Positions 1-13,756 of a stretch of 13,756 nt of DNA are shown piece after piece. The stretch lies in UHGV virus genome UHGV-0099327; one strand, written 5' to 3'. Position 1 is the first letter of the stretch. Each line of letters starts with the position of its first letter. This DNA is from a virus. A model generated the notes under the pieces. It did not search any database. It saw only the letters and a program-made list of their open reading frames with translations, and had not been told where the DNA came from. The position numbers and the translations under genes are program-made.

Positions 1-21
1 CTCCGGATGAATATGATGATC

Positions 22-321
22 TCATATCAGGAACTTGTTCGCACCTTCCCTAATTTCTTTTTCTTCGCTGATTGAACTGATATCAGTAAAGTCACCAGCG
101 GCAATAAAATTCTTACCTTGATATTGCAAGTCGTAATAAGCATCAGTTAACAACAGTTCTGCGCCGTTATGCATCTTAATCTGAACAAGATGAAACAACG
201 CGCCAACACTGAACAACTGACCAGTAGTCAGTTCAGTATAAGCAGTGCCGTTAAAATCGTTATACGCTTCGATGAAGTCGGGGTCTTTTCTCAGTCTGTT
301 AAATTGGTCTTTTACTGACAT
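22..321 (-). CDS. hypothetical protein (99 aa)
   Basis: ORF in the supplied track. ATG at 321..319 is preceded by an AGAGGTGG Shine-Dalgarno-like sequence. Its start overlaps the stop of the upstream 191-aa ORF (TAATG), suggesting translational coupling. No family recognised. Confidence 0.45.
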   Translation of the reverse strand: MSVKDQFNRLRKDPDFIEAYNDFNGTAYTELTTGQLFSVGALFHLVQIKMHNGAELLLTDAYYDLQYQGKNFIAAGDFTDISSISEEKEIREGANKFLI

Positions 322-896
322 TACACCACCTCTGTTGCAGTGAGTTTAATATTTGAAATTGATGCTAAGTCTAACGGGATAGTATCGTTCGTTAGGATGA
401 ATCGTCCTTTTGTTCCTCTGTAACTGACAGTTTCACCAGCTTGAACGTTCTGCAACAGATTCGGAAATAGTTTCATCTCTCCACCTGCTTTGACATCCTC
501 CGTCACGGTGTACAGCTTGGAGTGATTCTGAAACTGAACAAGTGCTCCCGCTTCTAAAGTATCTGCAAAGCTGTTCAGAGTGACCTTACGCGCTCCTTTG
601 TTAGCTGTAACAGATGCCTGGATAAGTCCCTGAGCCGAGCCTTTATAGTCAGTCAAGTAGCTTAACGGAAAGTCAAACGGTTGACCTTGTTGATGCATCG
701 CGATAAAGCGTTGAACGTGTCTTGTGTCCTGCGACATATAATTCACAGTGAAATTCAATTCGAAATATTGAACGCCTGTATAACGTTTCTGAAAACGTCC
801 TGATACTGCTCTGTTAGAGAAAAACGGAGCATTTGATTTAAGCTGAACATCGGTCAGCCTAACGTCTGTGTCTAATAGATTCATAAGTCCTCTCAT
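321..896 (-). CDS. hypothetical protein (191 aa); true start may be the second Met at 884
   Basis: Long ORF transcribed divergently from the endolysin gene, with only 33 bp between the two starts. The second ATG (884..882) has a GAGGA motif a few nt upstream. No family recognised. Confidence 0.45.
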   Translation of the reverse strand: MRGLMNLLDTDVRLTDVQLKSNAPFFSNRAVSGRFQKRYTGVQYFELNFTVNYMSQDTRHVQRFIAMHQQGQPFDFPLSYLTDYKGSAQGLIQASVTANKGARKVTLNSFADTLEAGALVQFQNHSKLYTVTEDVKAGGEMKLFPNLLQNVQAGETVSYRGTKGRFILTNDTIPLDLASISNIKLTATEVV

Positions 897-929
897 AAAT
901 AAGATTTTAACTATATTTATGAGGCCAAT

Positions 930-1415
930 ATGGAACTAAACGCAATGCTTCGTTATGACGAAGGCGAAAAACTCACGATGTATAAAGACACAGAAGGATA
1001 TTTCACAATCGGTGTCGGACACTTGATTACAAAAAATCCATCAAGAGACTACGCTTTGAAAGAACTTGATAAAGCTGTTGGTCATCCTTGTTATGGATAT
1101 ATCACAGCGAAAAAATCTGATCAGTTACTGAATATTGATGTTAACTCAACTCTGCGTCAGCTTAGTAAAACAGAACTGCATCCAGCTTATATCAGAATCG
1201 ATACAGCCAGGCGTTCAGCGTTAATCAATATGTGTTTTCAACTCGGCGTTTCTGGCGTATGTCAGTTCAAGAAATTCTTGGGATACATAGCTGTTGGAGA
1301 TTATCAAAATGCGGCTGATGAAGCTTTAGACTCAAGATGGGCACGTCAGACTCCTAATAGAGCAAAACGTGTAACTGATGTTATTAGATATGGCGATTTC
1401 AGAAGTTATAATTAA
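930..1415 (+). CDS. endolysin, T4 lysozyme (gene e)-type muramidase, GH24
   Basis: 161-aa product aligns by eye along its length with T4 lysozyme (MELNAMLRYDEGEKLTMYKDTEGYFTIGVGHL versus T4 [32 protein letters not shown]). The catalytic Glu11, Asp20 and Thr26 equivalents are conserved, as are the ALINMCFQLG and RWARQTPNRAKRV blocks. GAGG sits 5 nt before the ATG. Confidence 0.9.
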   Translation: MELNAMLRYDEGEKLTMYKDTEGYFTIGVGHLITKNPSRDYALKELDKAVGHPCYGYITAKKSDQLLNIDVNSTLRQLSKTELHPAYIRIDTARRSALINMCFQLGVSGVCQFKKFLGYIAVGDYQNAADEALDSRWARQTPNRAKRVTDVIRYGDFRSYN

Positions 1416-1767
1416 AAATTTATATTATCTAATTTGAACAGCATCAAGTTGATGAATCGGACTAAGCAGATATGTAATTAACACCATCAGCTTAGTCTAC
1501 ATATAGCTTGTTATAATTTTTTACGACTCAACGAAGTCTTGTTAGGATAATGTAAACAAATCCGTTTTTTAGATGTTAGTAATATTAGCAATGTTCATCT
1601 TAGAATGTGATATCGAAGGAAACTCGAAAATGATAATAGCTTTACACTATTGAGAAAATTTGGTTGAGGCTTCAAAATAGAGCATTCATACGTGATCAAT
1701 AGCCAGACTAAGCAAGCAACAGCTAACCCCCGTAACGTACTGATTAAATTGATAATTGAAGGTGCAT

Positions 1768-2055
1768 ATGTTAAAAGTTACTGGTCTTGATAAGCTTCAG
1801 AAAGAACTCAAGGATGCAAAGCGTATACTGAGTGAGCTGGATGGCGAGCTAGGAGTCGTAAAGTTTAACCCTAACGACCCTGCTAGCATCGAGTCGGCAA
1901 TTCAAACAGTTAATCACATGATTGATGAACGCATTGGCGGATGTTCAACCAACTCCATAGTCGGCTCGCTTGCGCAGCAGATGAAGGAAACATACAGAGA
2001 AGGCATTCTTAAAAAAGCTGCCGAAGCCAGATTGACTTCAAGTGAGGATGAGTAA
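1768..2055 (+). CDS. hypothetical small protein (95 aa from ATG 1768), first gene of a two-gene operon with the TIR-like protein
   Basis: ORF with a GAAGGTG SD-like motif 3 nt before ATG 1768 (spacing short; the track starts at TTG 1756). Its stop overlaps the next gene's start (TAATG at 2053..2057). No family recognised. Confidence 0.5.
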   Translation: MLKVTGLDKLQKELKDAKRILSELDGELGVVKFNPNDPASIESAIQTVNHMIDERIGGCSTNSIVGSLAQQMKETYREGILKKAAEARLTSSEDE

Positions 2056-2951
2056 TGGCTCAAGATATTTTTTCTGAAATGAACAATGCTGTTCTGGATT
2101 TACAGGCTTCACAATACCAGACCTTTGAACGTCCACTCAAAAAGCTTGCTCAGCTTCTAAAACATTCCGATCTTGAATCATACAATGCAGACCTGACTGA
2201 AGGACTCAATCTTACAGAGTTTCTCGCAGAAAGTGAGAAGACTGGAGGAAGTATGGCTGGGAGTGCCCAGCTTGTCTGGCCAGATGATGCAAGAAAAACA
2301 CTAGGCCTTACATTACTTTTGATTTTTAAGTTAGCAGAAGATCCTAATTATGCAATCAACTTTGGACATCATTTTTTCTATTCCGGAAGTAAAGTTATAG
2401 CAGGCATTCATTCGATTACAGGACAACTTATCATTCCTTTCGTTAGAGATTACAAAAATTATGTTCAGTCTAAGGGAAGCACAGAAACTATGTTGAAGCC
2501 GCAGTTTTCGAACAAAGTTTTCATTGTTCATGGTCATGATGATGGCGCCCGTGAAACAGTCGCAAGGTTTCTTGAACGTATAGGTTTAGAAGCAATCATA
2601 TTACATGAGCAAGCTAATCAGGGACGAACTGTCATTGAGAAAGTTATAGCAAATAGTGATGTTGGATTTGCTGTTGTATTGCTAACACCAGATGATGAAG
2701 GTTGTGCTAAAGGAGGAATACCAGAACCAAGGGCAAGGCAGAATGTAATGCTAGAATTAGGATATTTTATCGGGCGTTTAGGCAGAGAGAAAGTATGTGC
2801 ACTAAAACGCGGCTCACTAGATATTCCAAGTGATTTTGCTGGGGTTGTTTGGGAAAATATGGATAGCAGTGGAGGCTGGAAGCAAGCACTCGCACGAGAA
2901 CTTGAAGCTGCTGGTCACAATATTGATTGGAATAAAGCAATGCGGAGTTGA
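2055..2951 (+). CDS. TIR-like domain protein (Cap12/PycTIR-type nucleotide-binding domain at C-terminus, uncharacterised N-terminal ~150 aa); candidate anti-phage effector
   Basis: 298-aa ORF with a GAGGA SD. The C-terminal half carries the motif series KVFIVHGHDDG (nt 2517..2546), AVVLLTPDDEG, RARQNVMLELGYFIGRLGREKVCAL and IPSDFAGVV. From memory this matches the bacterial TIR-like family found in CBASS Cap12 and Pycsar effectors. The N-terminal domain is not recognised. Confidence 0.6.
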   Translation: MAQDIFSEMNNAVLDLQASQYQTFERPLKKLAQLLKHSDLESYNADLTEGLNLTEFLAESEKTGGSMAGSAQLVWPDDARKTLGLTLLLIFKLAEDPNYAINFGHHFFYSGSKVIAGIHSITGQLIIPFVRDYKNYVQSKGSTETMLKPQFSNKVFIVHGHDDGARETVARFLERIGLEAIILHEQANQGRTVIEKVIANSDVGFAVVLLTPDDEGCAKGGIPEPRARQNVMLELGYFIGRLGREKVCALKRGSLDIPSDFAGVVWENMDSSGGWKQALARELEAAGHNIDWNKAMRS

Positions 2952-3002
2952 TTTTATATAGCTCTATTTTTAGCGATACTGGCGTTTCATCGACAATTAA
3001 AA

Positions 3003-3037
3003 ATTTGGCTGCTGATTAGCCTAAAACGCAGCCAAAT
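3003..3037. repeat. 10-bp inverted repeat (ATTTGGCTGC ... GCAGCCAAAT) with 15-nt spacer in the terS-upstream intergenic region; possible protein-binding site or cos/pac-associated element
   Basis: Arms at 3003..3012 and 3028..3037 are exact reverse complements. The repeat lies in the 337-bp non-coding stretch upstream of the Nu1-like gene, where lambda-like phages place cos. Confidence 0.35.
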
Positions 3038-3134
3038 ATAAATCATTAATGATATTGCTTAAATAAGTTTTAACGACTCATCTTCTGCCCCCCCTCTAAC
3101 AAAAAATAATAGTTACTCTGGGACTTCTGAAACA

Positions 3135-3163
3135 CCGAGATGTTTCGAGCGCTCGGCTTTTTT
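3135..3163 (+). terminator. putative intrinsic terminator downstream of the TIR-like operon
   Basis: CCGAG ... CTCGG stem (3135..3139 and 3152..3156) contains the palindrome CGAGCGCTCG and is followed by TTTTTT (3158..3163). Confidence 0.35.
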
Positions 3164-3288
3164 CTGCTGTGTGAAAATTCCAAATCAATTCAGTTCATCA
3201 TCGATAGACAGGACTGATTCCGGATGATTTTTCCGTTCAAGATAAATACAGTAATAAACCCTTGGGCCACTTGTGTAAGGAGAATAAA

Positions 3289-3810
3289 ATGGCACGTAAA
3301 ATTTACGTCAGTATGACTGATATGGCAAAACGTTATGGTTATACCCTTAACGCTATTAAATCATGGAGAGCAGAAGGACTTCCTTATTCAGATAATCCAG
3401 CAGGAATACCAGAAAACGAAGGCACTTTATGGATCGTTCAGAACAAAATTAATCCGATGCGCAATATGTCTGTTCGTGATGAATTCGAGAAAGAAAAACT
3501 TCGTGAACAGGTGGCGAAGGCTGACTTAGCAACTTATGCAGCGCAAGAAAAATCAGGTGAATTAATCCCTGTTGAGTTGGTGCAAGCTCAATTGAATCAG
3601 TTCTGTCAGTCTCTGAAAGATTCCATCAGGCTGATTCCGTCAAAACACGGTATCGAAATCATGGAGTCTGCTAATGATATCCAGGAGCTGAAAGAAAAAC
3701 TCAAAGAGATTTTCAACAGAACATTGAATGAACTTGGTGAGTCGTTCGAACAAGACTTCGAACACGTTGACAAACCAGAAGAGAAAGAAGATAGTGAAAT
3801 TGAACTTTAA
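3289..3810 (+). CDS. terS: terminase small subunit, lambda Nu1-like (N-terminal winged HTH)
   Basis: ATG at 3289 with an AAGGAG SD 6 nt upstream. The N-terminus (SMTDMAKRYGYTLNAIKSWRAEGLP) resembles the lambda Nu1 HTH (KKQLADIFGASIRTIQNWQEQGMP), followed by a similar EKEKLREQV acidic/coiled segment. An intrinsic terminator follows immediately. Confidence 0.6.
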   Translation: MARKIYVSMTDMAKRYGYTLNAIKSWRAEGLPYSDNPAGIPENEGTLWIVQNKINPMRNMSVRDEFEKEKLREQVAKADLATYAAQEKSGELIPVELVQAQLNQFCQSLKDSIRLIPSKHGIEIMESANDIQELKEKLKEIFNRTLNELGESFEQDFEHVDKPEEKEDSEIEL

Positions 3811-3835
3811 GGGAGTTTGCACTCCCTTTTTAATT
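3809..3835. terminator. intrinsic terminator (stem AAGGGAGT / ACTCCCTT, loop TTGC, T-run), probably bidirectional
   Basis: Perfect 8-bp stem begins at the terS stop codon and is followed by TTTTT on the + strand. On the minus strand the same hairpin follows the 70-aa gene and is flanked by A/T-rich sequence. Confidence 0.65.
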
Positions 3836-3916
3836 TCAAACAGTTACCATGTTTATGTATTTCATTTTTAAAATCGAATGAAGGAATTTAAAGCGATGGT
3901 GGGACCAAAATGTTTT

Positions 3917-4129
3917 TCATCGTGTTGCTCCTTTAAAGATTTGTTTCTGACGATTAATGAACATTCTTTCCTGCTTGAAATAGCCTGCTTCAATTTCGAC
4001 TGACTCTGTTAGATGTTGCTTAGGGTATTTTTCGCGACTAGCGCAATGTACATTTTTTCGTTGTAACATAAAACTGATTTTCACATAATCGCGCTTGCAA
4101 ATTACACACTTGTAATCATGGCCTGTCAT
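3917..4129 (-). CDS. hypothetical small Cys/His-containing protein (70 aa) immediately downstream of the retron RT
   Basis: ATG at 4129..4127 is preceded by a strong AAAGGAG SD at 6-nt spacing. The product contains CVIC ... HC, a possible metal-binding motif. It sits 187 bp downstream of the RT gene on the same strand and is followed by the hairpin at 3809..3835. Confidence 0.5.
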   Translation of the reverse strand: MTGHDYKCVICKRDYVKISFMLQRKNVHCASREKYPKQHLTESVEIEAGYFKQERMFINRQKQIFKGATR

Positions 4130-4316
4130 ATATACTCCTTTGTAAAACTATATTTATAGCCTCCATAACATTACAAAAGAATGATATTTTTAATTTGAGG
4201 TGTCGTCCAAATATGATTATATTCCAAAGTGACATTAATGAATATTGTCCCGACTACGGAATAGGGATTAAAATAAACCGTAACCGGGAAATATATTTAT
4301 TATCCATTTTTAACCA

Positions 4317-6086
4317 TCATGGATAGTACAAATTTTTAAAGTGATTATTAATATCAACCATAGCATCAAGAATTGGTTTGAACAATGAAAAATCTATAGT
4401 CTGTCTATTTTCTCTGATAATATTGTTGGCAAACCTGTCTTTTCCAAAAGTAGTAGTGCTATCATGATTATTACTTTTATCAAAGGATTTACCGTTAATT
4501 GTCTTTGTCAGAACTTCATCTTTGAAAAAGTCTTCCATGCACGATTGTTTATCACCAGCCAATAGTGGAGTTAACAATACGTAGAGGTTATTCTCTAAAT
4601 GTAAAAATTTATGTTTTCTTACGTCCTCTGATTTTCTAGGCAGGTGAGAATATTCTTTGATTATATTATTAATAAAATCAGATGGCCCAGTGTCATTATC
4701 CAAAACAATTATTACTGGATTTTTAGGCGGTTGTCTTTCAAATTTCTTGCATTGTTCTCTATGCCTTCTAAAGAATCTTACATAGTCAGCAGCCCCACCG
4801 TAGAGGTCTAAAAAATATTCCTTTTTTGCGTTTGTTTTGAATAACGTAATATTTAAAATTCTATTCTTTGTTCTATCGTCAACTCTAACCAGAGCAGGAT
4901 AACTTAAATACAAAGAATCAATTGCACATTTCAAATAAATTGGATCTGTTTTACCTTCTGTCAAAACTGTAGGCTTTATATTCCCATAAAAATACTTATA
5001 ATGAAGAAAGTTACTGAATGCTGTCTCTCTTGAATTCAATTTGAGAGTAAAATTAATTCCAGTTTTCTTTAGCACATATTTTTCTGGGAGTGTATGTTTT
5101 TTAGCGTTAATGTTATTATACTTATCAAGCATATCAATATAAACGAAGCGGCCTTCAAGTTCATTTAGAGTACCTTTTCGCGGTTTTCCACTAATATCCA
5201 AAAGGGTAAAATCCCCTTCTTTATAAAGTGCATGCGCCATAGCTCTGGTTTTTTTAATATAATCTTTATTGACATTTATTTTTTTGTTTACGGTTAAACC
5301 TGTTACTTCCTGCCTTGATGTATGCCGCAATATTCTGGTCTTATTATTATTAATTTTAAATCCAGCTTTTTCAATTTCATTAACTAACAATGGTCCTAAC
5401 TCGTTAGAATTCTCATTTATAACAATTGAGTCAGGAAACTGATTTTTGTTAGTTGAGAATGTTATATCATCTGCATATCGACTATAACTGCATCCATTAG
5501 AAAGTGCCAACTTTGACAATCTAATATCTAAAATATTACATATAAGATTGCTTATTACAGGAGAGCAAGGACTTCCTTGCGGAAGTTTTCCATCATAGCA
5601 AGCTATCTGCGCAATTATAGTTGCTATTGATGGGTGCAAATTAAAATATTGATTCGCGATAAAATAACCACGGACCCTACCGAAATTAAATGTAGGGAAA
5701 AAATCCTCAAGATCAATATTTAAAACATTGGTTTTATTTCTATGTCTTTCTGCATTTGTTATTATTGTTTTATTTTTCTCAAATCCATGAGATAAGCTAG
5801 GGGTGATATTATTTGTTTTCCATATTTCGCTCTGACAAACATACAATAAATCTGATAAACGCCTTTGTATGTCTTTTAGTTTTTCAGTAGGCGCAAATAT
5901 CTCTCTGTCACCTCCAGACTTCTTTTTTATAATAAATCTTTCATATTGATGCTCAGGTCGTATTCTGTACAGGACATTAGTAAGAAAAGAAACTTTAATT
6001 TGAAGTAAGCGTGCAAACTCAAATTTGGTCTTGCATGACTTGAGTCTTTCTAAGTAGGAGGGAGTGAACATAATAGTAAATTCCAT
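4317..6086 (-). CDS. retron reverse transcriptase fused to a C-terminal TOPRIM (OLD-nuclease-like) domain, Ec67-type
   Basis: 589-aa ORF carrying RT motifs: KKSGGDREI (aa 55..63), NIDLEDFF (motif A, Asp125), QGSPCSPVISN, and YADD (aa 204..207, nt 5477..5466). The C-terminal region has TOPRIM-like TEGKTD and VLDNDTG motifs. Size and motif order match my recollection of the Ec67 RT (about 586 aa). A retron-like ncRNA lies directly upstream. Confidence 0.9.
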   Translation of the reverse strand: MEFTIMFTPSYLERLKSCKTKFEFARLLQIKVSFLTNVLYRIRPEHQYERFIIKKKSGGDREIFAPTEKLKDIQRRLSDLLYVCQSEIWKTNNITPSLSHGFEKNKTIITNAERHRNKTNVLNIDLEDFFPTFNFGRVRGYFIANQYFNLHPSIATIIAQIACYDGKLPQGSPCSPVISNLICNILDIRLSKLALSNGCSYSRYADDITFSTNKNQFPDSIVINENSNELGPLLVNEIEKAGFKINNNKTRILRHTSRQEVTGLTVNKKINVNKDYIKKTRAMAHALYKEGDFTLLDISGKPRKGTLNELEGRFVYIDMLDKYNNINAKKHTLPEKYVLKKTGINFTLKLNSRETAFSNFLHYKYFYGNIKPTVLTEGKTDPIYLKCAIDSLYLSYPALVRVDDRTKNRILNITLFKTNAKKEYFLDLYGGAADYVRFFRRHREQCKKFERQPPKNPVIIVLDNDTGPSDFINNIIKEYSHLPRKSEDVRKHKFLHLENNLYVLLTPLLAGDKQSCMEDFFKDEVLTKTINGKSFDKSNNHDSTTTFGKDRFANNIIRENRQTIDFSLFKPILDAMVDINNHFKNLYYP

Positions 6087-6102
6087 TATTAATTATGTTA
6101 TT

Positions 6103-6231
6103 GCACATGCAGGCACTCTTACGCATTTCAAAGTGACGCCCAAGAAGATCCGACGTCCGTCAGAGGCGAATACTGCCGACCTTTTAATCACTGATTGCGA
6201 TACCACAACCAACAAATCTACCTGCATGTGC
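6103..6231 (-). ncRNA. msr-msd: retron msr-msd non-coding RNA (template for msDNA), bounded by 11-bp inverted repeats a1/a2
   Basis: Exact inverted repeat GCACATGCAGG (6103..6113) and CCTGCATGTGC (6221..6231) flanks about 107 nt, immediately 5' of the RT start on the minus strand. This is the canonical a1-msr-msd-a2-RT layout. The 5' part of the minus-strand segment (AGATTTGTTGGTTGTGGTATCGCAATCAGTG) resembles my unverified recollection of the Ec67 msr. The only ORF here (6064..6249) is implausible. Exact ends are uncertain. Confidence 0.6.
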
Positions 6232-6516
6232 CTTGCTAATTTATCATAGTTAACAATCAAAACAAGCACTTTTGAAAATGGTTGTATCTTATTGATTAAC
6301 TAATCATGGTCAAAGCCGAACATTCCTCGTGAAGATTGTTAGAATTTGAGATCTTTACGAGCACTTAACAGACTGTCAGATTCAGTCATGGAGCAAGTTG
6401 AATGCAATGTTATCATGTATCACTTTTTCTTTTTCGTCGTTAAGATGGTTCATAAAACTTACCATTAAGTCGATTGATAACTAGTAATTACATCTGTAGG
6501 TTCTCTTGATGATTTG

Positions 6517-7257
6517 TCAGAGGGCATTTGAGCTAAATAAAGTTGATTCGACGAGTTCAATTGCTTCATCTTCGATAGTTGATTTGTCCATTGTTTTGGT
6601 CGGCTCAGAAATATCAATTTTCACAATTACAATCTCGTCATCAAAAGATAGTTTTTCACCCCTTCTTTCTTTACGTAAAACGCTGTTCTCTTTGCTGAGT
6701 TCAGCGTTTTTCCTTTCTAACTCTGCGACTCTTTTCATCAAATCTTCCATTTTGGAATTCACAACATCTAGTTTCTGCTCAGTCGGAAATTCAATACTTT
6801 CGATGATTTCAATAAATTCACCAGTATACATCTGAACAAACTGCTCGGTGTCTTTGATCTTCTGCATTCTTAGATCTGAACAGAAAGCTTTCCACGAGTT
6901 CTTTTTACCGTTAATTTCACAAGCAACGATAACAGCATTATCGGTTGTATAAGCAACGATTGCAGGCAGATTATTAACTTCGGTCGTACCGATTTCGAAG
7001 CTATGCATATTTTTTACAGTCACAGCATTTTCAATCTTCTGTAACATCTTAGCTCGAACATTACGATGAATATCTATAGCTTTAACAAGAGCTTTCAGGC
7101 TGTTTTTGTTATTGGTCATTCTATTAACTTTGATAATATTTCTGTTCAGGCTTGCTTTAACTGTTCTGTCTAGATTTTCGAAGACTGCAAATTTGAAATT
7201 CAATTTATTTGCCTTTATTGATTGGTTGAGTTCTGATATTACGTTTTTTGCAAGCAT
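6517..7257 (-). CDS. hypothetical protein (246 aa) with C-terminal coiled-coil-like segment
   Basis: Long ORF with phage-like codon usage. No SD before ATG 7257. The 5' 53 nt overlap the upstream HTH ORF in a different frame. C-terminal region (KMEDLMKRVAELERKNAELSKENSVLRKERR) is heptad-like. Family not recognised. Confidence 0.5.
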   Translation of the reverse strand: MLAKNVISELNQSIKANKLNFKFAVFENLDRTVKASLNRNIIKVNRMTNNKNSLKALVKAIDIHRNVRAKMLQKIENAVTVKNMHSFEIGTTEVNNLPAIVAYTTDNAVIVACEINGKKNSWKAFCSDLRMQKIKDTEQFVQMYTGEFIEIIESIEFPTEQKLDVVNSKMEDLMKRVAELERKNAELSKENSVLRKERRGEKLSFDDEIVIVKIDISEPTKTMDKSTIEDEAIELVESTLFSSNAL

Positions 7258-7363
7258 TATACATCGTTGCTTTATTCATTTGTTTAGATTCTGCAATTTG
7301 CTGAAATGTCTCACCAGAGTCTAAGCGAGATTCAATTTCGAATTTGTTAGGTATAAATTTCAT
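7205..7363 (-). CDS. small HTH-like protein (52 aa from Met at 7363); possibly the N-terminal part of a frameshifted larger gene
   Basis: ORF track entry 7205..7399. I prefer the internal ATG at 7363 because the terminator hairpin at 7394..7413 overlaps the longer version. The segment SGETFQQIAESKQMNKATMYNACKK looks like a helix-turn-helix. No convincing SD. Confidence 0.3.
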   Translation of the reverse strand: MKFIPNKFEIESRLDSGETFQQIAESKQMNKATMYNACKKRNIRTQPINKGK

Positions 7364-7393
7364 GGGGTTGCCTTTTTTATTGAATTGAAAAAT

Positions 7394-7419
7394 AAGCACT
7401 CCGAAGAGTGCTTTAAACT
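7394..7419 (-). terminator. intrinsic terminator on minus strand (8-bp stem, UUCG tetraloop, U-tract)
   Basis: The + strand AAGCACTC-CGAA-GAGTGCTT at 7394..7413 reads on the minus strand as AAGCACUC-UUCG-GAGUGCUU followed by AUUUUUCAAUUC. Confidence 0.45.
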
Positions 7420-7619
7420 TAAGGAATTTTTAAATGAACTAAGCTAATTGCTTATATCTTATTTTATGACGGATAAAGTCAGTAGTAAACAAACGAGAGA
7501 AAATAACGAGGAAGAAGAAACTCTCTGTGTTCATACTAATATTTATATAGTTCACCGAAAGTGTAAACAAAGTCCGAAAAATAATTTAGTGAAAAGCAGG
7601 TGCATTGATGCACATCAAA

Positions 7620-7643
7620 ACGCATCGATAACGCATCGATGCG
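7620..7643. repeat. tandem direct repeat ACGCATCGATA/ACGCATCGATG, the second copy lying within a perfect 12-bp palindrome CGCATCGATGCG; adjacent TGCAT-tg-ATGCA inverted repeat at 7601..7612
   Basis: Read directly from the sequence: two 11-nt copies at 7620..7630 and 7631..7641, and the palindrome at 7632..7643. Operator-like architecture in a stretch with no convincing ORF. Confidence 0.4.
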
Positions 7644-7762
7644 ACTCGGAGAAGTGCATGGACCCTAGAAAAAATCGCCCTATAAGAACAATTGGATAAA
7701 GATGAACTGGAAGGATATAGAAGCAGTACAAAACCTGGAAAACATAGCGAAGCGAGCAGATT

Positions 7763-7888
7763 GCGCGAAGCGCGGGCGAAGCCCTAATTGATAAACATTA
7801 GCGCGAAGCGCGACAGATAACACTATCGAACTTGATTACTAGCTACTGATTAGATGTTTCTAGATAAAGATTATTAGCGCTTCGCGCG
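7763..7888. repeat. cluster of GC-rich mini-hairpin repeats (GCGC-GAA-GCGC, GGGC-GAA-GCCC, GCGC-TTC-GCGC) embedded in AT-rich non-coding DNA
   Basis: GCGCGAAGCGCG at 7763..7774 and 7801..7812, GGGCGAAGCCC at 7774..7784, and the inverted version GCGCTTCGCGCG at 7877..7888. Copies two and three share the 5' flank ATTAGCGC. These are GCGAAGC-type hairpins, known to be unusually stable as DNA. Confidence 0.5.
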
Positions 7889-8350
7889 TTCGCTACGCTC
7901 ACAATATTATTTTTCAGATCTGGATAATAATGATTACTGGATAACTGCATTATACTGTTCGTCTGACAATCAATAAACATAACGATCGATAATTAATTGA
8001 AATAACGTTAATGAGTTCTCCTTCGCTATCGCTACGTCGAACGGGCAAGCCCTATCTTTGATGATAGTAATGATTGACTGCTACATCATCCCTCCTCGCT
8101 TCTCCCTGCTTCTACTGACCTAATGATACTCCAAGTCAATTCCCTGTTATCAAGTTCACCTGATGCTTCCTGCTTCGTTATCGACCTTATTGCTTTTGAC
8201 TCTACGCTTTCAGCTTCGCAGGAAGTACGCCCTGCTGTTTGCAGATCGTTCTAAAGAACTGAGTAATCAAGTTCTCAACTATTTGATTCCTTGCGCCCCA
8301 AAGATGCCTCCAGTATCTGTGGTTTACAATCTACTCATTTGAAATTCAAT

Positions 8351-8378
8351 AAAAAAGGGAGCACTAAGCTCCCTTTTG
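8351..8378. terminator. intrinsic terminator hairpin (GGGAGC-ACTAA-GCTCCC) flanked by A-run and T-run, probably bidirectional
   Basis: 6-bp GC-rich stem at 8357..8362 and 8368..8373, with AAAAAA upstream and TTTT downstream. It lies immediately 3' of the 59-aa minus-strand gene, whose stop is at 8379..8381. Confidence 0.55.
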
Positions 8379-8558
8379 TCATTTCAGATCAAGCACTAAT
8401 GCTTGTTCAAGTTTTTTCTCAAGCAGAGTGTTTAATCCACTTTCGAAAAATTCAATCGCTTGAACGTCTGAGTCTGTTTTTAAGCGAACAGCGGCATCGT
8501 CAACTGTTAACTCTTCGGTCTTAACATCACCGTTTTTATAAACCACATTAGCAATCAT
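8379..8558 (-). CDS. hypothetical small protein (59 aa), not in the supplied ORF track
   Basis: My own translation of the minus strand: AAAGGAGAAAGC-ATG (ATG at 8558..8556) opens a 59-codon frame, MIANVVYKNGDVKTEELTVDDAAVRLKTDSDVQAIEFFESGLNTLLEKKLEQALVLDLK, ending TGA at 8381..8379 and followed directly by the terminator. Strong SD with ideal spacing. Confidence 0.5.
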   Translation of the reverse strand: MIANVVYKNGDVKTEELTVDDAAVRLKTDSDVQAIEFFESGLNTLLEKKLEQALVLDLK

Positions 8559-8796
8559 GCTTTCTCCTTTGTTGCTAAAAAATAATAACCGAATGATATC
8601 ACTTGTTCAATTTTTCTTTCAATCAAATAAGTATCCGATGAATAGTCGGCTCTCTAAACTAGCAGGTATGAAATAGTTCCTTAATTCTGAACTTCCTCAC
8701 TTTGCTTCCTATTTAATATTGCAATTTTAAATCTAGTGTAATTAATTTAGCTACAAACTTGCATTTATTATACATTTAAAAAATCGCCTCCATTCG

Positions 8797-9231
8797 TTAG
8801 GCATTCTCAGTTTCACTCATTTCTCCTTTAGTGCTATTCACACAGCGAAGAAACTGATCCCTCTGATACGCGGCAGTTTTGTCTGACATCTGTTTTTTGA
8901 ATAACTCAAAATCCCCCTCTGTACGTTTAAAAATAATCATGCTAATCGCAGATGGTTTTTTATTAGCCGATTTGCTAGCAAGAAGTTTTTCGATGTTATC
9001 GAATCCGAAAGCCTGATTCACGATTCGTTGTGCTTCAACAGCATCGACAACTTCAACCGTATTTTCAGCTTTAACTTCTTCAACAACTGTATATTCCTCG
9101 ATGTTAGCTTTAACACGACGAACAACAGAACGAGGAACATCGTATTTTTCAGCAAGCTTACTCTCTGACATATCAGTACCAGCGTTTAATTCAGAAGCAA
9201 TTCGGTTTTCAACAGTCAGTTCAGTTTTCAT
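8797..9231 (-). CDS. hypothetical HTH-containing protein (144 aa from Met at 9231), divergent from terL
   Basis: The internal ATG at 9231..9229 is preceded by AGGAGA, whereas the track start at 9288 has no SD. The N-terminal segment SESKLAEKYDVPRSVVRRV looks like a helix-turn-helix. C-terminal part not recognised. Confidence 0.55.
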   Translation of the reverse strand: MKTELTVENRIASELNAGTDMSESKLAEKYDVPRSVVRRVKANIEEYTVVEEVKAENTVEVVDAVEAQRIVNQAFGFDNIEKLLASKSANKKPSAISMIIFKRTEGDFELFKKQMSDKTAAYQRDQFLRCVNSTKGEMSETENA

Positions 9232-9376
9232 TGTCGTTCTCCTGTGTTTTGTTGGAACAGACTTTAACAGGCGGATATCCAGGTGCAAGAACTCTTAGAA
9301 ATAATTTTATGGAGGTTTTCATAAATACAGACAGAGAAATGAAATCCATTTTGGGTTCATCCACTTAGGGCTGATT

Positions 9377-11260
9377 ATGAAAAACTCAAATAAACTGAAA
9401 AGTATCTTACAGAATGCAAAGCGCTTTTTAATGCCACCTCCTGACTACACTCCGTCCGAGTGGGTCGAACAGTACCTGAAATTCCCTGATGGTCCTTATA
9501 CAGGGCAGCCGATGAAACTGTTTGAGTTTCAGAAAGGCATGATTGACGTCATTAAAGAACGTAAGAAGAAAATCGTCTTCGAGACTTCTGCCCAGATTGG
9601 CAAGACAACCATCTTGAACGGAATTCTGTTCTATAAGTCTGCTACTGATCCCGGTAACGCTGGTGTCTTGCAGTCAACCGGTAAAGAGACGACTCAATGG
9701 CTATCAGGCAAGATTCGCCCAATGATTGACGAATCGGAAGAAATGCAACGAATCGTCACCGACAAGAACGACAGAAACGCAGTGAATAACACCAGTCAAA
9801 TTCAGCTACGTGCTGGAGGCTTTTGGTATTTCATGTCGCTCAATAGCCCTTCTCACTTACGCGGTAAAACTCTTCCGCTGATGTTGCTTGATGAAGTTGA
9901 CGCAGTTGAAACAGACACAGAAGAAGGCAACCCGATTATCATCGCGGAACAACGTGCTACGACGTTCGGTGAAGACGCTCGTGTTTTCATTAGCTCGACG
10001 CCTACAAGTAAATACGGTGCTATCCACACGCAGTATGAAGCATCCGACAAGCGCAAGTATCATGTTCCCTGTCCTACATGTGGTCATAAGCACGAACTGA
10101 CGTGGGAGAATATCAAATTCGACTGGGTAAAAATCGATGGTAAATCATTACCTGATCCTAACTCTGCCAGAATTGAATGTCCTGAATGTCATCACGCTTT
10201 CTCTGAAGGCGACCGAGCACGAGCAATTAAACAAGGTGAATGGATTATTCATCAACCTGAAAGTCGAATTGCTGGATTCCACGTAAGTCGTTTATACAGC
10301 CCAATGAGTTCTATCAAATCAGTTGTTGAAGACTATAAGCAAGCATGGCAAACGTTCAGCTTGTCAACGTTTTATAACACTGTTCTTGGTCTACCGTTTG
10401 ATGATTTAAACGAAGACATTGAGGTTAGTAAATTAGAAACACTCAAGACGAATATCGGCATCAGCAATATACCAGAAGACACGTTGTTTTTAACCGCTGG
10501 GGTTGACCAACAGCAAGACCGTTTAGAAGTAACCTTGATGGGTCACAACGAACGAACCGTTTATATTCTTGCACATCGTAGCTTTATGACAATGAACGCT
10601 GAGGTTATCGATTCCCCTGCTTATAAAGAACTTCTTGCATACGTTAAAGCACCGTTCAGAACAGCTTTGGGAAGAAAGGTTCCTTTAGCGTGGGTGAACG
10701 TCGATAGCTCAAACGGTCGAGCAACTAAAACAATCTATCGTTTCTGCTCTCAGTGGACAAACCTGAAAGCAATTAAAGGTGCCAGCTCTGTTGATGCCCC
10801 TTATGTTCCAACGAAAATCACGAAAACCGGTGGTTATGAACTTTATATGATTGGTGTAAACCAAGGAAAAAACTTAGTTCGTGAACTGCTAAACAGAAGC
10901 GTGAAATCTGGAAATACACCAGTCAGAGTCGAAATCTCTGATGATGTTCCAGATGATTACTGCGAACAGCTTATGTCCGAAGAATTAAAACGCTCTGGTA
11001 ATACTGTTAGATGGGTTATTAAACAAGGCGGTGTTCGTAACGAAGGTCTTGACTGCTTTAACTACGGTTATTGCGCGCGTCTGCAAGTTCTAGAGAAAAT
11101 CAAATTTCACGAGTGGAGGAAACTCGCTGCTAAACCTGATATTGAAATGCCAGAAGAACAAAACGAAACAAATTCTCCTATTATTCAAACTCCTGAACCT
11201 CGTCGAAACATTATCAAACGAAACAGACCAGTTAATAAGCCTCGTGGTTTCGGATTATAA
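9377..11260 (+). CDS. terL: terminase large subunit, lambda GpA family
   Basis: 627-aa product with Walker A-like ETSAQIGKTT and Walker B-like LMLLDEVDAV. Blocks resemble lambda gpA: HVPCPTCGHKHEL ... CPECHH (Cys-rich), FHVSRLYSP, LTAGVDQQQDRLEVTLMG, IKGASS, GLDCFNYGYCA. Length is close to lambda gpA (about 641 aa). Confidence 0.9.
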   Translation: MKNSNKLKSILQNAKRFLMPPPDYTPSEWVEQYLKFPDGPYTGQPMKLFEFQKGMIDVIKERKKKIVFETSAQIGKTTILNGILFYKSATDPGNAGVLQSTGKETTQWLSGKIRPMIDESEEMQRIVTDKNDRNAVNNTSQIQLRAGGFWYFMSLNSPSHLRGKTLPLMLLDEVDAVETDTEEGNPIIIAEQRATTFGEDARVFISSTPTSKYGAIHTQYEASDKRKYHVPCPTCGHKHELTWENIKFDWVKIDGKSLPDPNSARIECPECHHAFSEGDRARAIKQGEWIIHQPESRIAGFHVSRLYSPMSSIKSVVEDYKQAWQTFSLSTFYNTVLGLPFDDLNEDIEVSKLETLKTNIGISNIPEDTLFLTAGVDQQQDRLEVTLMGHNERTVYILAHRSFMTMNAEVIDSPAYKELLAYVKAPFRTALGRKVPLAWVNVDSSNGRATKTIYRFCSQWTNLKAIKGASSVDAPYVPTKITKTGGYELYMIGVNQGKNLVRELLNRSVKSGNTPVRVEISDDVPDDYCEQLMSEELKRSGNTVRWVIKQGGVRNEGLDCFNYGYCARLQVLEKIKFHEWRKLAAKPDIEMPEEQNETNSPIIQTPEPRRNIIKRNRPVNKPRGFGL

Positions 11261-13390: not shown

Positions 13391-13756
13391 ATGCTAAAAC
13401 TAAAACGCGATTTCGAAGCCCAAGAAATTAAAATTACTGATGATAGTTATGAAATTGCGTTCTCAAGTGAAACTCCTGTTGAACGTCAAATTCTCGATAG
13501 TTACGGTCAACCAATAACAGTTAACGAAATTCTTTTGCATGACGGCCCTCAAAATGCTGACCTCGAGCGAATTAATAACGGTGCTGCTCTGTTGTTTAAC
13601 CATAATTTCGACAATCATCTAGGCGTTGTAATTCCTGGGTCTGTAAGAATCGATAATGACCGTAAAGGTCGCGCTGTTGTTAAATTCAGTAAAGTTGGTC
13701 AATTAGCTAAGGAAGGTGCGAATAAGCGGGGAAATTCTTCTCGGCTGACTCAGTCA
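13391..13756 (+). CDS. prohead protease (HK97-type), 5' partial; runs off the window end
   Basis: ATG at 13391 is preceded by AAGAGGAA. The N-terminal segment EIAFSSETPVERQILDSYGQPITVNEILLHDGP ... ALLFNHNFDNHLGVV ... DRKGRAVVKFSK resembles HK97-family prohead proteases. It is in the expected position after the portal gene. Confidence 0.55.
   Translation, partial: MLKLKRDFEAQEIKITDDSYEIAFSSETPVERQILDSYGQPITVNEILLHDGPQNADLERINNGAALLFNHNFDNHLGVVIPGSVRIDNDRKGRAVVKFSKVGQLAKEGANKRGNSSRLTQS

What the first reader, a model, noticed from the sequence alone, without database searches (positions are those of the whole stretch)
3840..9376. About 5.5 kb of minus-strand cargo separates terS from terL
In lambda-like packaging modules Nu1 and A are adjacent and usually overlap. 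Here the Nu1-like gene ends at 3810 with its own terminator and the GpA-like gene starts at 9377. Everything between them is on the opposite strand: a retron, a small Cys-rich protein, a 246-aa protein, HTH proteins, a 59-aa protein and a hairpin-repeat region. That layout looks like an accessory or defense island acquired inside the packaging operon. It also implies terL needs its own promoter in the 9232..9376 divergent region.
Basis: partly seen in the sequence, partly recalled or inferred. Interest (0 to 1): 0.75.

Follow-up and report, generated by a model that had tools for sequence, protein, structure and literature searches.

The report
Retron cargo between split terminase genes
In a rare family of enterobacterial prophages, a conserved block of small genes and non-coding DNA always keeps the two DNA-packaging genes 4.6-7 kb apart. 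In this copy an Ec67-type retron (a known anti-phage system) sits in one variable slot of that block, so this is familiar defence cargo in an unusual but family-wide genome layout.

Summary
terS (3289-3810, with its own terminator) and terL (9377-11260) are 5.5 kb apart, and every supported gene between them is on the minus strand.

Comparison with 15+ related prophages (E. coli, Kluyvera, Citrobacter, Klebsiella, Pantoea) shows the interval is composite:
- **Family backbone, about 3.1 kb.** It holds a GntR-like HTH, a 59-aa protein, about 1 kb of conserved non-coding DNA with GCGAAGC mini-hairpins and a short terminated transcript, a 52-aa HTH, a coiled-coil protein (F3) and a zinc-ribbon-derived 70-aa protein (F4). 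It separates terS from terL in every relative.
- **Swappable cargo, 2.39 kb (4130-6516).** This is a complete type I-C retron: msr-msd at 6103-6231 and RT-Toprim at 4317-6086, roughly 60% identical by eye to the solved Retron Ec67/Eco2 protein. It lies exactly between F3 and F4, which overlap or are fused in relatives with an empty slot. Other relatives carry three unknown plus-strand genes there.

In the nearest cultured phages with a GpA-type terL, terS and terL overlap, so the split looks like an old trait of this family. The retron is recent, low-GC cargo.

Verdict: a new member of a known kind (prophage defence hotspot carrying a retron), with moderately interesting unexplained backbone features.

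The parts
3289..3810 (+). terS, a Nu1-like small terminase subunit with an N-terminal MerR-type winged HTH. The C-terminal ~70 residues vary among relatives.
   Evidence: phrog_57 3e-21. hhalign against phage ECO1230-10 terS: 92% probability, E 5.8e-7. BLASTP against lambda Nu1: E 3e-4. No Pfam or NCBIfam hit.
3809..3828 (+). Intrinsic terminator-like hairpin and T-run that overlaps the terS stop codon.
3917..4129 (-). F4, a 70-aa derivative of an FmdB-type zinc ribbon and part of the conserved backbone. The second Cys pair is lost here, but the C-terminal motif NRxKQxFKxAxR is kept.
   Evidence: tblastn hits in all relatives at 28-43% identity. Alignment A6. Fused to F3 in P0002, P0006 and P0010.
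4130..6516 (-). Swappable cargo slot A, occupied here by a 2.39-kb retron cassette with 32.2% GC.
   Evidence: Boundaries. GC. Homology to other Ec67-family retrons spans about 4337-6270.
4317..6086 (-). Retron RT-Toprim fusion protein, type I-C, Ec67/Eco2 family.
   Evidence: PADLOC RT-Toprim_I-C 7e-216. NCBIfam NF038237 scores 708.7 bits against a cutoff of 450. PDB 9lm3/9i2f 'Retron Ec67 protein' 5.5e-189, with YADD, TEGKTD and DNDTG aligned.
6103..6231 (-). msr-msd non-coding RNA gene, bounded by the a1/a2 inverted repeats.
   Evidence: Perfect 11-nt inverted repeat. Fold of -53.4 kcal/mol, z-score -3.8. Alignment A7 to the ncRNA of an Ec67-family retron is 84% identical overall and by eye higher between a1 and a2.
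6517..7203 (-). F3, a backbone protein with an N-terminal domain, a coiled coil and an acidic tail. The ORF extends to 7257, but the likely start is the TTG at 7203, one base after the HTH52 stop.
   Evidence: Only 10 homologues were found, those named all Enterobacteriaceae, and some are fused to the zinc ribbon. The only family hits are coiled-coil matches. Start position inferred from the sequence and from homologue N-termini.
7205..7363 (-). HTH52, a small helix-turn-helix protein and the first gene of the HTH52-F3-(slot)-F4 operon.
   Evidence: 92% identical in E-93 and PSS-15. Weak match to the HTH of phrog_125.
7384..7489 (-). Conserved sigma-70-like promoter (TTTACT-17-TAAAAT, 7489->7461), followed by a short transcript of roughly 55-70 nt that ends at a conserved terminator (7413->7394). 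This is a candidate sRNA or attenuated leader.
   Evidence: Compensatory change in the terminator stem. Weak Rfam TarB-like hit, E 0.032.
7364..8378 (.). Conserved non-coding region of about 1 kb. It holds a GCGAAGC mini-hairpin cluster (7747-8219, in convergent orientation) and a tandem AACGCATCGAT repeat (7619-7640).
   Evidence: The cluster and its polarity are conserved in E. coli, Kluyvera and Citrobacter relatives.
8379..8558 (-). 59-aa backbone protein of unknown function. It has its own promoter-like site (8622->8593) and a hairpin plus U-run at 8373->8351.
   Evidence: The hairpin was read from the sequence.
8797..9231 (-). F2, a GntR-like winged-HTH protein transcribed divergently from terL.
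   Evidence: Pfam GntR 1.2e-4, below the gathering score. RefSeq names the orthologues 'GntR family transcriptional regulator'. 54-66% identical in relatives.
9232..9376 (.). Divergent intergenic region where the terL promoter is expected. It contains the conserved blocks GAACTTTAACA and TTCATAAATAC.
   Evidence: Alignment A3. The scan found no consensus sigma-70 site on the plus strand here.
9377..11260 (+). terL, a GpA-type large terminase subunit.

Best explanation
The terS-terL interval has two layers of different age.

**Layer 1: family backbone.** This is a minus-strand block made of the following, in order from terL towards terS:
- a GntR-like HTH and a 59-aa protein;
- a ~1 kb cis-acting non-coding region rich in GC mini-hairpins and short repeats;
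- a short terminated transcript;
- the operon HTH52-F3-F4.

This block lies between terS and terL in every member of a rare prophage family of Enterobacterales that uses a serine recombinase. The split of the packaging genes is therefore a fixed family trait and not a recent insertion. terL and the head genes must be transcribed from their own promoter in 9232-9376.

**Layer 2: recent cargo.** A complete type I-C (Ec67/Eco2-family) retron occupies a recombination-exchanged slot between F3 and F4.

**Likely mechanism, by homology to Eco2.** These steps are inferred and were not shown here. The RT copies the msd into msDNA. The msDNA cages the fused Toprim nuclease in a trimer. A nuclease of an infecting phage (DenB in T-even phages) degrades the msDNA. 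The freed Toprim then cuts tRNAs and stops translation, which aborts the infection and protects the lysogen population.

The backbone's own role is unknown. My best guess is a replication or regulatory control region.
For: **Backbone synteny**
- tblastn and ORF clustering place F4, F3, HTH52 and F2 (with p59 in some relatives) between terS and terL in E. coli E-93 and PSS-15 and in the IMG/VR loci L008-L012.
- The same layout is seen in Kluyvera and Citrobacter.
- It is also seen in K. pneumoniae and Pantoea, whose terS proteins are only 53-63% identical to this one.

**Slot A holds different contents in different relatives**
- Retron: window, L001, L004, L006, L007.
- Three unknown plus-strand genes: L002/L010, L011, L012.
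- Empty, with F3 and F4 overlapping or fused: L003, L008, L009, L016-L018, and proteins P0002, P0006, P0010.

**Retron identity**
- Protein family and structure matches.
- ncRNA.
- Cassette GC is 32.2% and RT GC3 is 0.25, against about 39% GC and 0.30-0.41 GC3 for the backbone.

**terS identity**.

**The norm elsewhere**: terS and terL overlap in lambda, Persinger and ECO1230-10, which otherwise share the order lysis, terS, terL, a ~170-aa gene, portal.

**Eco2 mechanism**: PMC12916289 and PMC12405507.
Against: - No expression, msDNA or phage-challenge data exist for this copy.
- The RT is only roughly 60% identical to Eco2 by eye, so its trigger and target could differ.
- All three retron-bearing prophage copies found in genomes are hit by IS elements: IS5 at both window ends, IS3 in terL of MS 115-1, and IS5 in 2021CK-01361. 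The phage context may therefore be dead.
- The backbone's function is unassigned. The AF2 model of F3-F4 is poor, with pLDDT 52.
- terS has no Pfam or NCBIfam hit, and its fold matches are not significant.
- No plus-strand consensus promoter was found upstream of terL.
Confidence: 0.8

Rival explanations
1. One reading: the whole 3840-9376 block is one accessory or defence island recently acquired inside a contiguous Nu1-A packaging operon.
For: - In lambda, Persinger and ECO1230-10, terS and terL overlap.
- The interval is on the opposite strand and is generally lower in GC than terL.
- It contains a bona fide defence system.
Against: - About 3.1 kb of the block is syntenic in every relative, including Klebsiella and Pantoea prophages integrated at other loci.
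- Only 4130-6516 is swapped.
- None of the backbone proteins matches a PADLOC model.
Confidence: 0.07
2. The backbone is the phage's replication module. The ~1 kb non-coding region would be the origin, with GC mini-hairpins, iteron-like repeats and AT-rich flanks, and HTH52-F3-F4 would be its initiator or control proteins. On this view the early region simply sits between terS and terL. This refines the main explanation rather than excluding it.
For: - No recognisable replication or CI-type repressor genes were found elsewhere in the ~34 kb prophage.
- The GCGAAGC cluster is conserved and has a fixed convergent polarity.
- Short repeats are present: a tandem AACGCATCGAT here, and several copies of GTTCCACGA, direct and inverted, in the Klebsiella relative (read from the sequence printed).
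- The HTH, zinc-ribbon and coiled-coil proteins lie directly beside the region.
- From my own knowledge, d(GCGAAGC) is an unusually stable DNA mini-hairpin reported at phage origins.
Against: - No homology to any known initiator, helicase loader or primase.
- The structure prediction was uninformative.
- Palindromes with compensatory changes fit protein operators as well as hairpins.
- Many other prophage genes are unannotated and could carry out replication.
Confidence: 0.3
3. The non-coding hairpin region is the packaging site (cos or pac), bound by terS. In the linear virion DNA, terS and terL would then sit at opposite ends, and the cargo slots would be cos-adjacent as in P2 and P4.
For: - P2 and P4 defence hotspots, which include retrons, lie next to cos (PMC9122126).
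- The region has repeated inverted motifs of the kind a terS wHTH could bind.
- Relatives have an HNH or homing-endonuclease-like gene beside the region or before terL.
Against: - A ~220-bp block directly upstream of terS is conserved whatever cargo lies upstream of it, and it has its own inverted repeat. That is the lambda-like position for cos.
- No virion end data exist.
Confidence: 0.12
4. The 3289-3810 product is not the small terminase but another MerR-like DNA-binding protein, so there is no split packaging module.
For: - No Pfam or NCBIfam family hit.
- All database homologues are named 'hypothetical protein'.
- Foldseek hits are not significant and are mostly generic MerR wHTH proteins.
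Against: - phrog_57 'terminase small subunit' at 3e-21 over the full length.
- Full-length hhalign match to a terS that overlaps a GpA-type terL.
- Match to the Nu1 N-terminus.
- The same position after the lysis genes as in Persinger and ECO1230-10.
- No other terS candidate lies next to terL.
Confidence: 0.05

Closest known systems
Retron-Eco2 (Ec67), type I-C RT-Toprim retron
   Same: - Single-gene RT-Toprim fusion aligned over its full length (5.5e-189 to PDB 9lm3/9i2f).
- YADD and the Toprim acidic motifs are conserved.
- The msr-msd lies upstream with a1/a2 repeats, and the ncRNA aligns closely with that of an E. coli Ec67-family retron.
   Different: - Roughly 60% protein identity to Eco2 by eye.
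- Sits inside a phage operon between terminase genes rather than in a chromosomal island (Eco889: next to an ABC-three-component system near dhaR) or a P2/186-like prophage.
- Trigger and target are untested.
Cos-adjacent defence hotspots of P2-like phages and P4-like satellites (Rousset et al. 2022, PMC9122126)
   Same: - Conserved phage core genes flank a slot whose content differs between otherwise related prophages.
- The cargo occurs in either orientation and includes retrons.
   Different: - A different phage family (GpA-type terminase, serine recombinase).
- The slot lies between two genes that are fused or overlapping when it is empty, inside a block that separates terS from terL.
- Adjacency to cos is unknown.
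- Only three or four cargo states are known, from about 20 loci.
Lambda Nu1-A, and the Jilinvirus / Harrisonburgvirus terS-terL modules
   Same: - GpA-type terL and a Nu1-like terS with an N-terminal wHTH.
- Same gene order: lysis, terS, terL, a ~170-aa gene, portal, protease/capsid.
   Different: In those phages terS and terL overlap by 8-26 nt. Here they are 5.5 kb apart, terS has its own terminator, and terL needs a separate promoter.
Phage P2 terminase genes M and P (from my own knowledge, not tested here)
   Same: The small and large terminase genes are not adjacent and are transcribed in separate units.
   Different: In P2 they are separated by the capsid and scaffold genes in divergent late operons. 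Here they are separated by non-structural regulatory-type genes and cargo.
Retrons Ec67 and Ec86 in 186-related prophages, replacing DNA between cos and a terminator (Dodd & Egan 1996; from my own knowledge, the paper is not in the searchable library)
   Same: An Ec67-family retron carried as replaceable cargo close to a temperate phage's packaging functions.
   Different: A different phage backbone and a different insertion context.

Membership tests
Type I-C retron (Ec67/Eco2 family) | Retron-clade reverse transcriptase with a YADD catalytic motif | tested here: met
   NF038237 scores 708.7 bits against a cutoff of 450. Pfam RVT_1 4e-23. YADD aligns with Ec67.
Type I-C retron (Ec67/Eco2 family) | C-terminal Toprim effector fused to the RT in one polypeptide | tested here: met
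   PADLOC RT-Toprim_I-C 7e-216, covering residues 10-585. TEGKTD and DNDTG are conserved against 9lm3.
Type I-C retron (Ec67/Eco2 family) | msr-msd ncRNA directly upstream of the RT, closed by a1/a2 inverted repeats | tested here: met
   Perfect 11-nt repeats at 6221-6231 and 6103-6113. Structured fold, z-score -3.8. Homologous to an Ec67-family ncRNA.
Type I-C retron (Ec67/Eco2 family) | Production of branched msDNA, and anti-phage activity through a caged Toprim RNase | not testable with these tools
   Needs msDNA extraction and phage challenge. The mechanism is known only for Eco2.
Lambda-type (Nu1/GpA) terminase module | Large subunit with GpA ATPase and nuclease domains | tested here: met
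   PF05876 1.5e-60 and PF20454 1.3e-45.
Lambda-type (Nu1/GpA) terminase module | Small subunit with a Nu1-like N-terminal wHTH and a helical oligomerisation region | tested here: met
   phrog_57 3e-21. hhalign against ECO1230-10 terS E 5.8e-7. BLASTP against Nu1 3e-4. The AF2 model shows HTH then long helices. There is no Pfam Nu1 hit.
Lambda-type (Nu1/GpA) terminase module | terS and terL adjacent or overlapping in one operon | tested here: not met
   A 5,566-bp gap, a terminator after terS, and opposite-strand genes in between. The same holds in all relatives.
Prophage defence hotspot (P2/P4 type) | Conserved flanking core genes with alternative cargo in related elements | tested here: met
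   The F3/F4 flanks hold a retron, a three-gene cassette, small genes, or nothing.
Prophage defence hotspot (P2/P4 type) | Cargo is enriched in anti-phage systems | tested here: inconclusive
   The retron is a known system. The alternative three-gene cassette has no PADLOC, Pfam or PHROG match.
Prophage defence hotspot (P2/P4 type) | Location adjacent to the cos site | not testable with these tools
   cos is unmapped. The candidates are the ~220 bp upstream of terS and the hairpin region.

The most novel reading that the evidence does not exclude
The conserved block between terS and terL is a previously undescribed phage control or replication module. It would consist of a cis-acting array of d(GCGAAGC)-type mini-hairpins and iterons, a promoter-proximal terminated sRNA, and an HTH / coiled-coil / zinc-ribbon protein set. 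In relatives the sRNA base-pairs with the ribosome-binding site of a neighbouring homing-endonuclease-like gene. The retron would be wired into this module: it is inserted at the F3/F4 joint with no detected terminator on either side, so its expression, or that of the F4 gene it displaced, would depend on the prophage's regulatory state.
Probability: 0.2. Interest if true: 0.6.

Novelty: new member of a known kind. Interest (0 to 1): 0.4.

Why it matters
- **A new defence hotspot.** It adds a prophage family and a new kind of position to the catalogue of phage-borne defence hotspots: inside an operon, at the joint of two genes that are otherwise fused or overlapping. It also gives flanking genes (F3 and F4) that could be used to find further cargo, including an uncharacterised three-gene cassette in the same slot.
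- **Split packaging genes.** It documents a GpA-type packaging module whose two subunit genes are permanently uncoupled in transcription. That bears on how terS:terL stoichiometry is set.
- **A diverged Eco2-family retron.** The retron is a natural variant, roughly 60% identical to Eco2 by eye, and could help dissect trigger specificity.
- **Limits.** None of this overturns current understanding. The family is rare: 7 of 5,426 complete E. coli genomes carry it, and 2 of those have the retron.

Tried and rejected
**Searches that found little or nothing**
- DNA searches of the phage collection found only the IS5 ends (megablast), and nothing for 3000-9500 with the more sensitive blastn.
- tblastn of terS against phages found nothing.
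- Both genome-contig scans, with terS and with the F3 profile, found no relatives. A second viral scan added only one new locus.
- Rfam gave only a weak TarB-like hit, which is essentially a terminator.
- No tRNA genes were found.
- A search of the window for a target complementary to the candidate sRNA found none.

**Protein family and structure attempts**
- Pfam, NCBIfam and PADLOC gave nothing usable for F4, F3, HTH52 or p59 beyond coiled-coil noise.
- AF2 of the F3-F4 fusion had pLDDT 52, so I did not take it to a fold search.
- AF2 of terS (pLDDT 74) followed by Foldseek against the PDB gave no significant hit. The top hits were MerR-type wHTH proteins and the RppC-TerS entry 6hn7, all with E > 0.4.
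- A terS profile search of the PDB gave only the RppC N-terminus, at E 0.018.

**Ideas rejected**
- The 70-aa Cys-rich ORF as a spurious ORF or a retron accessory gene: it is conserved in relatives that have no retron.
- The 246-aa protein as a ZapB or YabA homologue: the matches cover only the coiled coil.
- Escherichia phage DCP80, the closest cultured terL (53% identity), as a guide to gene order: the match lies at the very start of a 141-kb Straboviridae record and looks out of place there.

Full report
**1. What the window is.**
The 13.7-kb window is part of a ~34-kb prophage. In complete E. coli genomes this prophage sits between ybiT and ldtB, next to a large serine recombinase. The window's two ends (1-50 and about 13703-13756) are IS5 termini.

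The closest genome copy is E. coli MS 115-1. It is 99.2% identical over 51-10346 and only 84.6% beyond that point. Its terL is split by an IS3. The family is rare: 7 of 5,426 complete E. coli genomes carry its terS region, and two of those carry the retron.

**2. Check of the observation.**
terS (3289-3810) ends at a hairpin followed by a T-run at 3809-3828. terL (9377-11260) has the GpA ATPase and nuclease domains.

All supported genes in between are on the minus strand:
- a 70-aa protein (3917-4129);
- RT-Toprim (4317-6086);
- msr-msd (6103-6231);
- a 246-aa ORF (6517-7257);
- a 52-aa HTH (7205-7363);
- a 59-aa protein (8379-8558);
- a GntR-like HTH (8797-9231).

About 1 kb (7364-8378) is non-coding. 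It holds all six GCGAAGC heptamers of the window, where 1.2 are expected and 0 of 200 shuffles reach six. In lambda, nu1 and A overlap by 26 nt.

**3. Is 3289-3810 a terS?**
- Pfam and NCBIfam give no hit, and all database homologues are named 'hypothetical'.
- PHROG 57 (terminase small subunit) matches over the full length at 3e-21.
- BLASTP against lambda Nu1 aligns the N-terminal wHTH at E 3e-4.
- A profile of 18 family members matches the annotated terS of phage vB_EcoM_ECO1230-10 over 135 columns, with hhalign probability 92% and E 5.8e-7. It matches the Persinger terS at E 2.2e-4.
- In both of those phages the terS overlaps a GpA-type terL and follows the lysis genes, which is the order seen here.
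- The AF2 model (pLDDT 74) shows an HTH followed by long helices. Fold hits are weak MerR-type and RppC/TerS-complex matches.

I accept the terS call.

**4. What relatives show.**
I compared four E. coli genome loci (L001-L004), IMG/VR loci (L006-L012, L026) and contigs from Kluyvera, Citrobacter, K. pneumoniae and Pantoea (L016-L020, L027, L028).

In every one, terS and terL are 4.6-6.9 kb apart. The same minus-strand genes lie between them in the same order: a zinc-ribbon protein (F4), a coiled-coil protein (F3), a small HTH protein, then roughly 1-2 kb without called genes. In E. coli and close relatives the 59-aa and GntR-like genes follow.

Against the nearest cultured phages with a GpA-type terL, which have the same flanking order and overlapping terS and terL, the whole block looks like an old addition at the base of this family. 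That last step is inference.

**5. The variable part.**
The DNA between F3 and F4 differs among relatives:
- the retron in the window lineage;
- three unknown plus-strand genes in E-93, L011 and L012;
- a few tiny genes in Pantoea;
- nothing in PSS-15, L008, L009, Kluyvera and K. pneumoniae.

Where the slot is empty, F3 and F4 overlap. In Kluyvera and some E. coli proteins they form a single polypeptide ending in an FmdB-type zinc ribbon.

The retron cassette is therefore 4130-6516 (2,387 bp), inserted at a gene or domain joint. Its GC is 32.2% (RT GC3 0.25), against about 39% for the backbone. Homology to other Ec67-family retrons covers about 4337-6270, so the unit that moves is promoter, msr-msd and RT.

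Against E-93, divergence runs from terS through the GntR-like gene, while the flanking TIR, h164 and portal genes are 99-100% identical at the protein level. This fits exchange by homologous recombination in the flanking genes rather than site-specific insertion (inference).

In both cargo-bearing lineages, F4 has lost its second Cys pair but keeps an invariant basic C-terminal motif.

**6. The retron.**
- The protein matches PADLOC RT-Toprim_I-C (7e-216), NCBIfam 'retron Ec67 family' (708.7 bits, cutoff 450) and the solved Retron Ec67 protein (9lm3/9i2f, 5.5e-189). YADD and the Toprim acidic motifs are aligned.
- The ncRNA has perfect 11-nt a1/a2 repeats and folds well, with a z-score of -3.8. 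It aligns closely with the ncRNA of an Ec67-family retron that sits in an unrelated chromosomal island in strain Eco889.
- For Eco2, msDNA cages the Toprim nuclease in a trimer. The phage nuclease DenB starts msDNA decay, and the released nuclease cuts tRNA and stops translation (PMC12916289, PMC12405507).
- I infer the same mechanism here. It is untested.

**7. The backbone.**
Its function is unknown. The features I can describe are:
- **Short transcript.** A promoter has conserved -35 and -10 hexamers and a non-conserved 17-nt spacer (7489->7461). A short transcript follows and ends at a conserved terminator that carries a compensatory change (7413->7394). HTH52 comes next.
- **Possible sRNA target in relatives.** Relatives carry a homing-endonuclease-like gene about 1 kb away. 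In five of six relatives the short RNA is perfectly complementary over 11-16 nt to that gene's Shine-Dalgarno region, and over 7 nt in the sixth. The window lacks that gene and has no other target.
- **Hairpin cluster.** GCGAAGC-type mini-palindromes cluster with a conserved convergent polarity in E. coli, Kluyvera and Citrobacter relatives.
- **Repeats.** The window has a tandem AACGCATCGAT. The Klebsiella relative has several copies of GTTCCACGA, direct and inverted, read from the sequence printed.
- **Missing functions elsewhere.** No replication or CI-type genes are recognisable in the rest of the prophage.

I favour a replication or regulatory control region. A packaging site is less likely, because a ~220-bp block just upstream of terS is conserved whatever lies upstream of it.

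**8. The terL promoter.**
The 145-bp divergent region has conserved blocks. The scan found no consensus sigma-70 site on the plus strand there, which would fit an activator-dependent late promoter (inference).

**9. Verdict.**
- The retron is a new member of a known family, carried in a new prophage hotspot.
- The split of terS and terL is a fixed trait of an uncharacterised prophage family rather than the scar of a recent island.
- The closest known concept is the set of cos-adjacent hotspots of P2 and P4, which also carry retrons (PMC9122126).
- Interest is moderate. The unexplained non-coding region, the short RNA and the F3/F4 joint are the parts most worth following up.

Noticed in passing
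window 1-50 and 13703-13756: Both window ends are IS5 termini in the same orientation, so the segment is flanked by two IS5 copies. They truncate the DUF2163 hub gene on the left and the prohead protease/capsid gene on the right. The other retron-bearing copies are also hit by IS elements: IS3 in terL of MS 115-1, and IS5 replacing the GntR-like gene and the 5' part of terL in 2021CK-01361. The retron-carrying prophages seen in genomes therefore look defective.
   Followed up: partly
window 1756-2951: A 99-aa gene followed by a 298-aa TIR-domain protein (Pfam CAP12-PCTIR_TIR 4.8e-38; PADLOC candidate system PDC-S35 9.6e-71) sits just upstream of terS. This pair is absent from L008, L011 and L012. 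At the same position Pantoea has a PIN_12/PIN_8 protein, K. pneumoniae a 754-aa protein, and Kluyvera and Citrobacter have small genes. It is a second cargo slot on the other side of terS.
   Followed up: partly
window 7747-8219: A cluster of six GCGAAGC heptamers, embedded in GCGCGAAGCGC and GGGCGAAGCCC mini-palindromes. Four are on the plus strand, followed by two on the minus strand. The cluster and its convergent polarity are conserved in E. coli, Kluyvera and Citrobacter relatives. From my own knowledge, d(GCGAAGC) is an unusually stable DNA mini-hairpin.
   Followed up: partly
window 7384-7489 (minus strand); L002 19797-19839, with equivalents in L008, L009, L011 and L012: A conserved promoter plus terminator defines a short RNA upstream of HTH52. 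In five of six relatives it has 11-16 nt of perfect complementarity to the Shine-Dalgarno region of a homing-endonuclease-like (NUMOD3) gene about 1 kb away, and 7 nt in PSS-15. A TTAAG/TTAAAG difference mostly tracks between the two sites. The window lineage has lost that gene but keeps the RNA.
   Followed up: partly
L002 16179-17977 (also L010, L011, L012): Three plus-strand genes (158, 168 and 240 aa) occupy the slot that holds the retron in the window. None has a Pfam, PHROG or PADLOC match. They are a candidate uncharacterised defence or accessory cassette.
   Followed up: partly
window 3070-3288: About 220 bp upstream of terS is conserved in relatives whatever cargo lies upstream. It includes an inverted repeat GAAACA-N6-TGTTTC and a GAGCGCTC palindrome. 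It is a candidate cos site or late promoter.
   Followed up: no
window 321-1415, compared with L008, L011 and L012: The block holding the 191-aa tail gene and the lysozyme gene is inverted relative to terS in three IMG/VR relatives.
   Followed up: no
window about 10342: A mosaic breakpoint inside terL. Identity to MS 115-1 drops from 99.2% to 84.6%. Beyond it the portal protein is 70% identical to that of MS 115-1 but 99% identical to that of E-93, which indicates recombination between family members.
   Followed up: no
window 9305-9324 and 9375-9394: A 20-nt inverted repeat (80% complementary) has one arm over the terL start codon. It lies beside a ~40-nt stretch that is absent from E-93. 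It could be an RNA structure or an operator affecting terL expression.
   Followed up: no
L013 (PQ671644.1, Escherichia phage DCP80) 1734-3716: The closest cultured-phage terL (53% identity) lies at the very start of a 141-kb record classified as Straboviridae. It is followed by genes whose sizes resemble this prophage's h164, portal and protease-capsid genes. This may be a chimeric assembly.
   Followed up: no
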